From assembly GCF_009914755.1 (NCBI RefSeq), contig NC_060933.1: DNA of 64,000 nucleotides. One strand, given 5' to 3'. The translations under genes and the position numbers were made by a program. Shown here piece by piece: positions 2,345 through 6,175 of the stretch (within the stretch, counting starts at the first letter, position 1; each line of letters begins with the position of its first letter). Below the pieces are notes generated by a model that was not told the origin of the DNA, made no database searches, and saw only the letters and a program-made list of their open reading frames with translations. The DNA is from the human T2T-CHM13v2.0 reference genome, Homo sapiens.

Positions 2345-3654
2345 CTTGGAAGAACCCAGCTAAGAAGAGTCAGAAATGGGTCTGGGGGCAGCAATGACTT
2401 TCTCCGATTTTTCCTTCCAGGGACCCCACTGGGAACTGCACAGTATTTAAGACACTGCTGGTGAAAACAGACAACTCTACCACGTACAGAATCTGTGAGT
2501 AGCTGCCAGGCAGCAGAGCCACAGTCCCAGCAGCTCCCACACTCCAGCATCTGGCCACCAGCCCTGGGGGCACGCGGACACCCATCCAGCAGCTCCTGGC
2601 AGGCTGTGCTGACTCACCTCCGCCAGCCTCCAGGGCAGGCACTCAGCCCTCCTGGGGTCCTGTGCCCTCCGCCTGATCCCCACTTATTACACAGGGAAAG
2701 AAGGACTCAGCCCATCCCTGGGTCCCATGGACAGCATTTCCTGGGCCCGTGGTCCCTCCCTGGCATTTTGGAGTCATTTACAAGGCACGTTCTCCTCGCC
2801 GGGCCCTGGCAGAGTCCAGTGGCCTCTGTGGCATCCCGGAAGCTGTGTTTTCATCAGCCCTGCAGAGAAGCTGTCCAAGGCCAGCATCTGACCCCTCTGA
2901 CCTCCGTCAGCCAGAGCGGAGGAAGCAGCATCTGGGGGGGACTCTCACCGGCCTGGAGATGCACTTGGGGCTCACCCACTCACTGCCACCATCCTGCCTC
3001 CCCGAGTGCTCTCAGCTTCTGACTCGGGGCCCCTCCCATTTCCTATAGAGGGACAGAAATTATTAGCATTTCAGACTCATAGACTCAACTTAAAAAGGGC
3101 GCAACCACCCAGCTCACAAGAGCACATCCTCCGCCCCTCCCAGCGGGGGAGCAGGAGGTCTGCATCTGTCCGTGGAGACGGACCACTACTACATCATGAA
3201 CACCCGGGATGAGAGGAGGGACCCGGCCGTGCACACAATGAACCTGACAGGCGCGTGTCCACGCTGATGTCACGGGGCCTGTGGACGGGGGCCTGTGGAC
3301 GGGGGCGCTGCCCCTTGGAGTCCTCCCTAACTCAGCCATGCCCAGGTCTCTGTGGCAATGTGGGTGTAGCCCCCACGGTTCCCTCTGGCTCTCGCTGGGC
3401 CACACCTGGCGGGTGGCGTCCAAGGAGACAGGCAAGGGCTCCGTGATGTGGGACCCTGGGCTGCTGGCCTGGGAAGCAGCATCTCTACCAGGAGAGGCTG
3501 GGTCAAGGAGTCATAGGGGAAGTGAGGGGTACATGGAAGACCCCCTCCTCCAGGATGAGTGTCTGCATGGTTGGCAGAACAGGCTGGGAGACGGGGTCCC
3601 TCTCAGGAGGGCCTGGGGGCTGATTCTGGGGAAGGATCATTGACAGCAGGACCC

Positions 3655-3765
3655 CTGATTCCCCACCTTACCCCACCCACCCCCACCACCCCCCCTTACC
3701 CCACCACCCTCGCCACCCCCACCTTACCCCACCCACCACCTTATCCCACCCACCCCCACCACCCC
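3655..3765. repeat. C-rich low-complexity repeat (CCCCACC/CCTTACCCCA); G4-prone on - strand
   Basis: Directly visible. Confidence 0.85.
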
Positions 3766-4801
3766 TGCAATCAAATGTCCCTCAAGGAGTAGGTGCGGCA
3801 GTGGGGCAGGGCATCCCCAAGCCCAGGAGAGCCCTTCTCTGCTCTGTAGAGGGGCCTGGTAGGACCCCTTCCTATGGAGACTTCAGGGAAGGAGAAGAGA
3901 ACCACCCAGGGTGCTGTCAGCCACACAGGAGGCCCCTCTGCTCAGGTCCCAGATATACTCAGGCCACTTTTCCAGCCTGGAGCTGGGCTGGCAAGGGCTT
4001 CTTCCAAGGCCTCTTCTTAGCCAGAGCCAGCTCGGGTGTCACCCAGAGTCCTGGGCTCACCCTTGGGGCCTTGGCTCTCCTGCTCCATGGTTTGGCCTGG
4101 GGTTGGGGCTGCTACATATGTAGACAGGTCCCGGGGACAGCAGTGCAAGTCCTCTCTGAGGCCAGAGGCCCTGGGAGACCTGTCAGCATCCGGTCTGAAG
4201 AGTGGGGCCCTGCTCCCCTGCCCCACGTGGGCCTGGGGACCCTGCCTCTCCCGACTCCCTACCCCATTTTGCCTGCAGGCCACACCCTGCATGAAAACCC
4301 AGAAGCCCTGATGATCTTAGAAGCGTTTATAGAAAGCCAAAACATAAGCAAAGGCAAGATCTTTACCCCCACTCACCTTGGTAATGAGCACATTTTCCTG
4401 CTTTTCTCCGGACGTTCATTTCCCATGGGGATGAAGGGCTGCAGCTGACACTGAGCCGGGACACTCCGTGTACACTGGGGAAGCCTCAGCATCCTGGGGA
4501 GGAAGTGACCCCCTGCCTGTCTTTCTCTCTAGATTCCTGCGTGGTCGGCTGTAACTGAGGTGAGTGCCACAAGGCCTCTGCGTGTGTTCAGAGTGTCCAC
4601 ACCAGACTCCGGCCGGACTCATGGGCCCTGGGACTCCGCAGCCCTCGACCTTGGCAGCCTCCTTGCCTGCGGGTGCTTGAATGCCACGCAGCATCCGACG
4701 CATCCCACAACCTTGAGTCTGCTATGAGTCAAGTGTGGTCGCTGTAGATAAGGAGGAAAAAAGATCATGAAAAAGAACAACAACAACAAAAAATCACTCA
4801 T

Positions 4802-5100
4802 GGCCGGGCGCGGTGGCTCATGCCTGTAATCCCAGCACTTTGGGAGGCCAAGGCGGGCAGAACACGAGGTCAAGAGATCAAAACCATCCTGGCTAACACG
4901 GTGAAACCCTGTCTCTACTAAAAATACAAAATATTAGTCAGGTGTGGCGGCAGGCGCCTATAATCCCAGCTACTCGGGAGGCTGAGGCAGGAGAATGGCG
5001 TGAACCCAGGAGGTGGAGCTTGCAGTGAGCCGAGATCGCGCCACTGCACTCCAGCCTGGGCAACAGAGCAAGACTCCATTTCAAAAACAAACAAACAAAA
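4802..5100 (+). mobile_element. Alu, full length (AluY/Sc-like)
   Basis: GGCCGGGCGCGGTGGCTCA start, dimer, A-rich tail, TSD-like AAAAATCACTC on both sides. Confidence 0.95.
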
Positions 5101-5944
5101 ATCACTCCTAAGCTCACCACCCAGGCCAATGTACTCCAGAAAAAGGGAGAAGGCTTCACCACCTCCCTGTGTGATTTCATGTCCCAAGCTCTGTGTCTCA
5201 GGGTGTAGGAAGCCCTCTGTTGAATAAGTCCACCCTCCCTGGCCACAGCCTTAGTCCTACTTGCTGTTTGGGAACAGAAGATCCCTGCCCGGTGCCTACA
5301 GAGGGGTGGGCAGAGGCTGAAACCCTCCTCCATCTTCCCTCCCAGGCCCCAGGAGCCGAAGATTCCTCTTCTCACGACATGAAGCTCCCCTCCCCTCCTC
5401 CAGTCCTCAGCTTTCCTTTCTAAGAGAGAAGAGACCGGGGCCTGGGCAGTGAGTGGACAGGACTGTCCCCCTGTCCTCCTCTGTAGGTGCACGCCCCTAC
5501 AGGTGACACCTCTGGGTCCTCCACACCCTCAGTAGGAGCTCCAGGGCATGGCTGGTCTCCCAGCCACACGGGAAGCCACAGGATCCCCATGGGACATCCC
5601 CAGCCACGTGCCACACTCAGTAACCACCCGTGGGCTTGTGTGCAAATCCCTGAAGTCAGTGATGGCTCAAATGTCGTCTCTGCCACCGTGGAGGTTGGCC
5701 ATGGGGGAAAGGTGACGGGGGCAGAAGGGTGAGGGCTCCAAGTGGCTCGAGGAAGGGGCCATGGTGTGAGCAGGGGCACGGGCGGGCAGTCAAGGAGCTG
5801 GGAAGGGCCAGCCAGTCCTGCTCTGGAGCCTCCGGGAGGAGCCAGCGCTGCGGACACCTTGGCTGTAGCCAGGGAGGCTCACTTTGGACTTCCAACCTCC
5901 ACACCTGTCAGAGGCCACGAGTGTTTAGCCATTAAAGAAACCTC

Positions 5945-6175
5945 CAGGGGCTGCGGTGACAAATGACCACAGACTCAGGAGCTGAACACAACGCACATGC
6001 ATTGTCTCACAATTCTGGAGTCAAAAGTCTAGAAACAGTCGGTGGGGCTGGTTCCTTCTGGAGACTTCTGGGAAGGGGAGAAGCCGCTTTCTTGGCTTTC
6101 CCAGTTTCTGGAGTGGCTGCATCCTGCACTCTCGGCCCCGCTATGCCACCAAGGCCTCCGTTTCTGTAGCCTCTG
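5945..6175. mobile_element. MLT1-type MaLR LTR fragment
   Basis: GGCTGCGGTGACAAATGACCACAGACT...TCTCACAATTCTGGAG...AAGTCTAGAAA resembles MLT1. Confidence 0.6.

What the first reader, a model, noticed from the sequence alone, without database searches (positions are those of the whole stretch)
2421..5950. Hidden, nearly intact lipocalin gene (locus A), probably masquerading as a lncRNA
Seen: four exons with lipocalin sizes and phases (74, 107+1, 102, 27 nt) encode DPTGNCTVFKTLLVKTDNSTTYRI / SGEQEVCI(L)SVETDHYYIMNTRDERRDPAVHTMNLT / GHTLHENPEALMILEAFIESQNISKGKIFTPTHL / DSCVVGCN*, followed by a 3' exon with ATTAAA. Visible lesions are few: a 1-nt deletion near 3166-3171 (leading to TGA 3197-3199), a GC donor at 3251, and SCR3 Arg->His (CGC>CAC, CpG-type change). 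The reconstructed fragment carries four N-glycan sequons (NCT, NST, NLT, NIS) and an extra C-terminal Cys. Exons 5-6 resemble OBP2A/LCN1 ends (GRNxxxNxEALxxF...IFxPxxxxSC). Inference: a recently lost, heavily glycosylated lipocalin. From recalled synteny this interval overlaps the lncRNA LINC01502, which would then be a transcribed unitary pseudogene.
Basis: partly seen in the sequence, partly recalled or inferred. Interest (0 to 1): 0.85.

Follow-up and report, generated by a model that had tools for sequence, protein, structure and literature searches.

The report
Dead lipocalin gene transcribed as LINC01502
The lncRNA LINC01502 next to the glycodelin gene is the still-spliced remnant of a third tear-lipocalin/odorant-binding-type lipocalin gene that humans have lost, an ordinary kind of gene death that public annotation does not spell out.

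Summary
Upstream of the window I found the two exons it predicted: a signal-peptide exon and a 131-nt exon with the G-x-W motif. The coding exons measure 90/131/74/107/102/26 nt, against 90/131/71/111/102/26 in LCN1.

A read-through with X at each break scores 68.0 bits end to end on an HMM of 84 LCN1/OBP2 proteins. The best of 1000 shuffles scores 5.8. LINC01502 uses exons 1, 2 and 3 and the exon-6 acceptor, and skips exons 4 and 5.

The locus is not PAEPP1. PAEP-like DNA begins only at window 6900.

It is an old lineage, about 25% identical to LCN1 and sister to LCN1+OBP2 in a tree.

"Recently lost", "unitary" and "heavily glycosylated" remain untested, because no mammalian genomes were available and no orthologous protein was found. 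I rate it a new member of a known kind, of moderate interest.

The parts
1108..1165 (+). Alternative LINC01502 exon (58 nt) that is not part of the lipocalin gene. It lies in one arm of a palindromic repeat in intron 2.
   Evidence: RefSeq exon list (finding). Inverted-repeat arms at 1035-1160 and 2014-2139. Including it ends the lipocalin frame early.
2421..2494 (+). Lipocalin exon 3 (74 nt), which is also a LINC01502 exon. It holds the first Cys of the conserved disulfide pair and two N-x-S/T sequons.
   Evidence: HMM positions 76-96, third-ranked of 897 pieces.
3144..3250 (+). Lipocalin exon 4 (107 nt; 111 in LCN1, OBP2A and PAEP). It carries a one-base frame shift and is not in any RefSeq LINC01502 transcript.
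   Evidence: HMM positions 111-138. Exon sizes.
3163..3171 (+). Stretch within which the reading frame must shift by one base
   Evidence: The two frames on either side each continue the family alignment.
3197..3199 (+). TGA reached if exon 4 is read in the frame inherited from exon 3
3251..3252 (+). GC in place of GT at the exon-4 splice donor, in a weak context
4279..4380 (+). Lipocalin exon 5 (102 nt, as in LCN1 and OBP2A). It encodes the C-terminal helix region, has His at the position of the conserved Arg, and is skipped by the RefSeq LINC01502 transcripts.
   Evidence: HMM positions 135-167, second-ranked of 897 pieces. Alignment.
4533..4559 (+). Lipocalin exon 6 (26 coding nt including the stop, as in LCN1). 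It holds the second Cys of the disulfide pair plus one further Cys. Its acceptor is the start of LINC01502's last exon.
4533..6596 (+). Last exon of LINC01502. It runs on unspliced past the old exon-6 donor (GTGAGT at 4560) and contains an Alu at 4747-5108 and ATTAAA at 5931-5936.
   Evidence: RefSeq annotation (finding). Masked repeat. Alu matches.

Best explanation
Window 2421-4559 and the 10 kb upstream of the window hold one disabled lipocalin gene of the LCN1/OBP2 type, which I call locus A. It spans chr9:147,802,764 to about 147,812,560.

What is shown:
- All six coding exons survive in the ancestral order, sizes and phases.
- The gene cannot make a lipocalin, for at least three reasons. 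There is a TGA at codon 17 inside the signal peptide. Exon 4 has a one-base frame shift. The exon-4 donor is GC in a weak context.
- The conserved Arg of the third lipocalin motif is His.
- The promoter and most splice sites still work. The product is annotated as the lncRNA LINC01502, which joins exons 1, 2 and 3 to the exon-6 acceptor and skips exons 4 and 5.
- Papers report LINC01502 in mid-secretory endometrium and in decidual glandular epithelium. One of them lists it among transcripts of the PAEP-expressing epithelial cells.

What is inferred:
- The gene was functional for most of its history. It is about 75% diverged from its nearest paralogues, yet it keeps length, exon structure and an almost open frame.
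- Exon skipping follows from the damaged exon-4 donor.
- The RNA is most likely a by-product of a surviving promoter in the PAEP neighbourhood, not a product with a function of its own.
For: Exons and lesions.

Exon sizes: coding exons are 90/131/74/107/102/26 nt, against 90/131/71/111/102/26 in LCN1 and 72/134/71/111/102/23 in OBP2A.

Pairwise similarity of the X-marked read-through (176 residues, the length of LCN1):
- LCN1: 48.1 bits, 25% identity, residues 1-176 on 1-176.
- OBP2A: 45.4 bits. OBP2B: 43.5 bits.
- Next best are LCN15 at 23.1 and PAEP at 20.8.

Family HMM, built from 84 LCN1/OBP2 proteins that all carry PF00061:
- 68.0 bits over HMM positions 1-174 of 183, against a best of 5.8 in 1000 shuffles.
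- The exons defined by RefSeq alone (1, 2, 3, 6) score 30.0 bits. Exons 4 and 5 alone score 25.8.

Tree of 34 rows: locus A is sister to LCN1+OBP2 (support 87/85). It lies outside the well-supported LCN1+OBP2 clade (95/97).

Other points:
- The DNA is single copy in the genome.
- It has no DNA-level similarity to LCN1, OBP2A or PAEP apart from Alus.
- One stop against 5.7 expected in 170 codons of local sequence, P = 0.022.
- LINC01502 exon coordinates. Its isoforms and reading frames.

Expression (passages read):
- Raised at LH+7 in endometrium (PMC7710794).
- Exclusive to endometrial epithelial cells in a decidua survey; that cell type was identified there partly by PAEP expression (PMC6209386).
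- Used as a marker of glandular epithelium (PMC12042675).
Against: - No single exon peptide matches anything. Pfam gave 0 families for 4 of 4 pieces at E up to 10.
- The PDB search gave only chance hits for 2 of 2 pieces.
- The Atlas gave nothing usable for 2 of 2 pieces.
- A genome-wide six-frame search with PF00061 listed 42 matches and none in locus A. That search is weak: LCN1's own exon 2 reaches only 18.7 bits.
- Identity to any fetched protein is at most 27% (128 proteins). The branch is long (1.93), so the tree placement is unsure.
- The conserved Arg is missing.
- No orthologue was found in any species.
- Exons 4 and 5 have no transcript support in RefSeq.
- I could not give the joined read-through to Pfam, the PDB search or the structure predictor.
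Confidence: 0.9

Rival explanations
1. The exons are part of PAEPP1, the known beta-lactoglobulin/glycodelin pseudogene whose RefSeq span covers window 1-10274, so nothing is new.
For: The RefSeq gene row for PAEPP1 spans chr9:147,789,614-147,818,274 and so includes locus A (finding). PAEPP1 is described in print as the human beta-lactoglobulin pseudogene near PAEP (PMC8173191, passages).
Against: - PAEP protein matches only window 6972-10355 (exon 2 at 69% identity).
- PAEP gene DNA matches only 6900-7427, 7792-7886 and 9840-10772, at about 79% (71-79% over the three stretches), apart from Alus.
- Locus A scores 20.8 bits against PAEP but 48.1 against LCN1.
- In the tree it does not join PAEP.
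- The paper took its pseudogene from a stretch of about 4 kb, which fits the downstream relic.
- The RefSeq span starts inside PAEP's own first exon, so it looks like a stretched alignment.
Confidence: 0.04
2. It is a young duplicated pseudogene of LCN1 or OBP2A, like LCN1P1, or came with PAEPP1 in a block duplication of OBP2A-PAEP.
For: The gene order is LCN1, OBP2A, PAEP, locus A, PAEPP1. Exon sizes are those of LCN1.
Against: - No DNA-level match to LCN1 or OBP2A outside Alus, whereas PAEPP1 still matches PAEP at about 79%.
- Only 21-25% protein identity.
- The locus falls outside the LCN1+OBP2 clade, which includes afrotherian and xenarthran members.
Confidence: 0.03
3. The locus still encodes something. 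One possibility is the 84-residue open frame of isoform NR_109814.1, which starts at an internal Met, keeps the lipocalin frame through exons 2, 3 and 6 and lacks a signal peptide. Another is a full-length protein in people who lack the lesions.
For: The 84-codon frame exists because skipping exons 4 and 5 preserves phase. The RNA is abundant and specific enough to serve as a cell marker.
Against: - An N-terminal half of a beta-barrel without a signal peptide is unlikely to fold or be secreted.
- The other two isoforms end after 59 or 60 codons.
- At least three independent lesions would all have to be polymorphic.
- RefSeq curates it as non-coding.
- No protein matching exon 5 exists in the named sources.
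Confidence: 0.04
4. Chance: open frames in GC-rich DNA that happen to resemble lipocalin exons.
For: Each exon alone is insignificant.
Against: - 68.0 bits jointly, against 5.8 for the best of 1000 shuffles.
- Four of six coding exon sizes are identical to LCN1.
- The splice sites of exons 1, 2, 3 and 6 are confirmed independently by curated transcripts.
- The chain is colinear on the + strand only.
Confidence: 0.01

Closest known systems
LCN1 (tear lipocalin / von Ebner gland protein), 58 kb upstream
   Same: - Same strand.
- Six coding exons, four with identical coding sizes (90, 131, 102, 26 nt).
- The read-through is 176 residues, the same length as LCN1, and aligns end to end.
- It has the G-x-W motif, a T-D-x-Y-like motif and the Cys pair in exons 3 and 6.
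   Different: - Only 25% identity, with no DNA similarity.
- Exon 3 is 74 nt rather than 71, and exon 4 is 107 nt rather than 111.
- Four N-glycan sequons against none.
- His in place of the conserved Arg.
- Disabled.
- Reported in endometrial glands. LCN1's own tissues are from recall.
OBP2A / OBP2B (odorant-binding protein 2)
   Same: Same gene architecture and similar scores (45.4 and 43.5 bits). The exon-5 and exon-6 ends look alike: an E-A-L stretch, I-F-T-P and S-C.
   Different: About 21% identity. Locus A lies outside the LCN1+OBP2 clade.
PAEPP1 (human beta-lactoglobulin pseudogene), window 6900-10772
   Same: Both are neighbouring unprocessed lipocalin relics on the same strand, under one RefSeq span.
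   Different: They belong to different lipocalin subfamilies. PAEPP1 keeps about 79% DNA identity to PAEP, and one paper says it is not expressed (PMC8173191). Locus A is transcribed.
MUPP, the human MUP pseudogene at 9q32
   Same: A lipocalin of a chemical-communication type that is functional in other mammals and disabled in humans by few lesions, one of them at a splice donor (PMC6381713, passages).
   Different: For MUPP the orthologues and the human-specific lesion are known. For locus A neither is known.

Membership tests
Lipocalin (kernel lipocalins, Pfam PF00061) | First conserved region: G-x-W near the N-terminus of the mature protein | tested here: met
   G-L-W at the start of exon 2 (L004:7189-7319), aligned to G-T-W of LCN1 and OBP2A.
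Lipocalin (kernel lipocalins, Pfam PF00061) | Second conserved region: T-D-Y-type motif. The motif name is recalled; the alignment comes from the calls. | tested here: met
   T-D-H-Y in exon 4 aligns to K-D-H-Y of LCN1 and the family consensus.
Lipocalin (kernel lipocalins, Pfam PF00061) | Third conserved region: conserved Arg before the C-terminal helix | tested here: not met
   His (CAC, 4281-4283) aligns to the consensus Arg. This fits a disabled gene.
Lipocalin (kernel lipocalins, Pfam PF00061) | Match to the Pfam model above its cut-off | tested here: inconclusive
   - Only single-exon pieces could be submitted, and 4 of 4 gave no family.
- The genome-wide six-frame PF00061 search found no match in the locus among 42 listed, but real LCN1 exons barely register there.
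- As a substitute, an HMM of 84 PF00061-bearing LCN1/OBP2 proteins gives 68.0 bits.
Lipocalin (kernel lipocalins, Pfam PF00061) | Eight-stranded beta-barrel fold | not testable with these tools
   The structure predictor takes no spliced or X-joined sequence.
LCN1/OBP2 subfamily | Gene structure: six coding exons of about 72-90/131-134/71/111/102/23-26 nt, with a phase-0 first intron | tested here: met
   90/131/74/107/102/26 nt.
LCN1/OBP2 subfamily | Disulfide Cys pair (exon 3 and exon 6) | tested here: met
   Both Cys are aligned.
LCN1/OBP2 subfamily | Falls inside the clade in a tree | tested here: not met
   Sister to the clade (87/85) and outside the 95/97 LCN1+OBP2 group, with a long-branch caveat.
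PAEPP1 / beta-lactoglobulin pseudogene | Sequence homology to PAEP | tested here: not met
   20.8 bits over the signal peptide only. No PAEP DNA match before window 6900 apart from Alus.
Unitary pseudogene | Disabled coding frame | tested here: met
   TGA in exon 1 and a frame shift in exon 4. A weak GC at the exon-4 donor adds to these.
Unitary pseudogene | No parent gene from a recent duplication in the same genome | tested here: met
   Single copy. No DNA similarity to paralogues.
Unitary pseudogene | Intact orthologue in other species | not testable with these tools
   - No mammalian genomes were available.
- No protein shares three 5-residue words with exon 5. The same method on LCN1 exon 4 found 29 proteins.
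- None of the 128 fetched proteins exceeds 27% identity.
- 65 of the 185 hits were not listed.

The most novel reading that the evidence does not exclude
Locus A is the human remnant of a third, glycosylated LCN1/OBP2-type lipocalin that was secreted by endometrial glands in the implantation window, alongside glycodelin. On this reading it was lost in the primate lineage leading to humans. Its progesterone-phase, gland-specific promoter still fires, and intact orthologues survive in other mammals. That would point to a lost uterine carrier protein.
Probability: 0.2. Interest if true: 0.55.

Novelty: new member of a known kind. Interest (0 to 1): 0.4.

Why it matters
It gives an origin to a lncRNA that is used as a marker of endometrial and decidual glandular epithelium and that turns up in melanoma gene lists. 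LINC01502 is a dead lipocalin gene, not a de novo non-coding gene. That bears on how its expression and any proposed 'lncRNA function' are read.

It adds one lost member to the human 9q34 lipocalin cluster. A review I read in passages says several mouse lipocalins have no human counterpart (PMC6381713).

It also shows that the RefSeq PAEPP1 span on T2T-CHM13 lumps two unrelated relics together.

None of this changes how lipocalins or pseudogenes are understood.

Tried and rejected
- **Single-exon searches.** Pfam, PDB and the Atlas gave nothing. Exons of 24-43 residues are too short.
- **PF00061 over the whole genome.** There was no match in the locus, and the power is low.
- **Orthologue search with exon 5.** Blank. 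Two candidates from unnamed sources were withheld by the tool.
- **Profile search with LCN1 proteins plus exon pieces.** It returned 185 hits, of which 120 were listed. All listed ones are LCN1 or OBP2 types, and none is close to locus A. The 65 unlisted hits could not be seen.
- **Block duplication of OBP2A-PAEP into locus A-PAEPP1.** Rejected. PAEPP1 keeps about 79% DNA identity to PAEP, while locus A has none to OBP2A.
- **A 17-residue match to OBP2A at L004:7723-7773 (E = 0.051).** Rejected as chance. It spans OBP2A's exon 3/4 junction in unspliced DNA.
- **A separate 3' exon with ATTAAA.** The hexamer is there, but no annotated splice supports it.
- **Dating.** I made only a rough argument from lesion count and stop density. 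No outgroup was available.
- **Literature.** The search 'LINC01502' found 17 papers. I read passages of 4 and none mentions a lipocalin origin. 'LINC01502' with 'lipocalin' found 0 papers. 'PAEPP1' found 3 papers. 'lipocalin' with 'unitary pseudogene' found 7. 'Lcn4, Lcn3, pseudogene' found 8. 'lipocalin, OBP2A, PAEP, GLT6D1' found 1. The main text of the 2010 unitary-pseudogene survey (PMC2864566) has no word beginning with 'lipocalin' or 'Lcn'.
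Full report
**Observation.**
The window is chr9:147,808,001-147,872,000 of T2T-CHM13. I read 1-7000 and translated the four stretches in all frames.

Exon 3 is 2421-2494 (74 nt, AG/GTGAGT). Exon 4 is 3144-3250 (107 nt, with donor GC at 3251-3252). 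Exon 5 is 4279-4380 (102 nt, CAG/GTAATG). Exon 6 is 4533-4559, with its stop at 4556-4558 and GTGAGT at 4560.
- Read from exon 3, exon 4 hits TGA at 3197-3199.
- The frame that carries on the family similarity is one base off. The switch lies at about 3163-3171.
- The phases link all four exons.

**Upstream exons.**
I fetched the 10 kb before the window (L004) and looked at the LINC01502 exons listed by RefSeq.

- Its first exon (L004:4764-4933) holds an ATG followed by a hydrophobic signal-peptide-like stretch. That stretch is cut by an in-frame TGA at codon 17. From the ATG to the donor is 90 nt, in phase 0.
- Its second exon (L004:7189-7319) is 131 nt and opens with a G-L-W motif.
- The coding exons are therefore 90/131/74/107/102/26 nt. 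LCN1 has 90/131/71/111/102/26 and OBP2A has 72/134/71/111/102/23.
- LINC01502 uses lipocalin exons 1, 2 and 3 and the acceptor of exon 6. It skips exons 4 and 5.
- Two of its three isoforms add non-lipocalin exons.

**Is it a lipocalin?**
- Piece by piece, nothing reaches significance. This holds for Pfam (4 of 4 pieces without a family), the PDB, the Atlas and a genome-wide PF00061 scan (42 matches, none here).
- Joined in a script, with X at the stop, the frame shift and the split codons, the read-through has 176 residues. It aligns over its whole length with LCN1 (48.1 bits, 25% identity). OBP2A gives 45.4 bits and OBP2B 43.5. The next human lipocalins are LCN15 (23.1) and PAEP (20.8).
- I built an HMM from 84 LCN1/OBP2 proteins of 165-200 residues. 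These were chosen from the 128 proteins fetched, all of which carry PF00061.
- That HMM gives 68.0 bits over positions 1-174 of 183. The best of 1000 shuffles reaches 5.8.
- To guard against picking exons by resemblance, I scored subsets. The exons fixed by RefSeq splice sites alone (1, 2, 3, 6) score 30.0 bits. Exons 4 and 5 alone score 25.8.
- An unguided scan of all 897 open pieces of 22 kb puts exon 5 second and exon 3 third. PAEPP1 exons take first and fourth place.
- The best colinear chain is 21.5 bits on the + strand and 7.8 on the - strand. The + chain uses exons 1, 3, 4 and 5, and a piece of LINC01502's alternative exon in place of exon 2.

**Which lipocalin?**
- The DNA is single copy.
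- It shares nothing with the LCN1, OBP2A or PAEP genes apart from Alus.
- In a tree of 34 rows it sits as sister to LCN1+OBP2 (87/85). The rows were 15 human lipocalins, 18 mammalian LCN1/OBP2 proteins that I picked from the 128, and locus A.
- It falls outside their well-supported clade (95/97). Its terminal branch is long (1.93), so the placement is provisional.
- It is therefore an old third lineage, not a recent copy.

**It is not PAEPP1.**
- The RefSeq PAEPP1 row spans 28.6 kb, from inside PAEP's first exon to window 10274.
- PAEP protein matches only window 6972-10355.
- PAEP DNA matches only 6900-7427, 7792-7886 and 9840-10772, at about 79% identity (71-79% over the three stretches).
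- A review describes PAEPP1 as the unexpressed human beta-lactoglobulin pseudogene, taken from a stretch of about 4 kb (PMC8173191, passages).

**State of the gene.**
- The disabling lesions seen are the TGA in the signal peptide, the frame shift in exon 4 and the GC donor of exon 4. In addition, His stands where the family has a conserved Arg.
- Otherwise the frame is unusually open. There is one stop where 5.7 would be expected from the stop density of the surrounding 22 kb (P = 0.022).
- Together with about 75% divergence from its nearest paralogues, this implies by inference that the gene was under selection for most of its history and died late relative to its origin. I cannot date the loss.
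- There are four N-x-S/T sequons against 1.06 by shuffling (P = 0.012). LCN1, OBP2A and OBP2B have none, and PAEP has three. This is suggestive only.

**Orthologues.**
- A search with exon 5 found no protein in the named sources sharing three 5-residue words.
[quoted passage not shown] The blank therefore argues against an annotated close primate orthologue carrying this exon.
- A profile search returned 185 hits, of which 120 were listed. None of the 128 proteins in hand is more than 27% identical.
- No mammalian genomes were available, so 'unitary' and 'recent' stay open.

**Expression and mechanism.**
- From passages read, LINC01502 rises at LH+7 in endometrium (PMC7710794).
- It is one of three lncRNAs exclusive to endometrial epithelial cells in a first-trimester decidua survey. 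That survey identified those cells partly by PAEP expression (PMC6209386).
- It is used as a glandular-epithelium marker (PMC12042675).
- It also appears in melanoma lists (PMC13048569).
- The simplest reading is a surviving promoter and surviving splice sites, with exons 4 and 5 dropped after the donor was damaged. The last part is inferred.
- Because exons 4 and 5 together kept phase in the intact gene, isoform NR_109814.1 retains an 84-codon frame from an internal Met. This frame has no signal peptide, and I think translation into anything useful is unlikely.

**Known or new.**
- No paper in the held library contains both 'LINC01502' and 'lipocalin'.
- The lipocalin family review lists 19 human genes and names mouse genes without human counterparts. 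In the passages I saw it does not mention this locus (PMC6381713).
- I could not see GENCODE pseudogene tracks or any supplementary tables.
- I class it as a new member of a known kind: a transcribed, unprocessed lipocalin pseudogene.

Noticed in passing
window 6900-10772: The PAEP-homologous relic (PAEPP1 proper) lies here. DNA is about 79% identical to PAEP at 6900-7427, 7792-7886 and 9840-10772. The exon-2 peptide is 69% identical to PAEP and has no stop. No PAEP exon-1 match was found upstream. The RefSeq PAEPP1 span starts inside PAEP's own first exon and runs 28.6 kb, which looks like a stretched alignment.
   Followed up: partly
window 32564-38274 (LOC102723971, 'lipocalin 1-like'): Despite its name, this protein scores only 25.4 bits on the LCN1/OBP2 HMM, below PAEP (42.2) and LCN9 (56.4). 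In the tree it joins PAEP and LCN9, with a long-branch warning.
   Followed up: partly
window 992-2181: Intron 2 of the lipocalin relic holds a palindromic repeat of about 1.2 kb, with arms at 992-1328 and 1848-2181 that are 75-84% complementary. Five 20-nt tandem units lie in its centre at 1388-1507. A LINC01502 alternative exon (1108-1165) is drawn from one arm. I did not identify the element family.
   Followed up: no
window 3660-3770: This is a C-rich CCACCC-type low-complexity run in intron 4. It is the only part of 2380-4600 with matches elsewhere in the genome. It helps keep the exon-5 frame open for 274 codons.
   Followed up: no
window 4377-4705 (- strand) and L004:7265-7649: The antisense lncRNA LOC105376316 overlaps lipocalin exon 6 and the end of exon 5 on the opposite strand. 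Its other exon overlaps the exon-2 region (annotation).
   Followed up: no
window 4747-5108: There is an Alu inside the last exon of LINC01502. Two more Alu-like stretches lie in intron 1 (L004:5403-5635 and 6732-7023).
   Followed up: no
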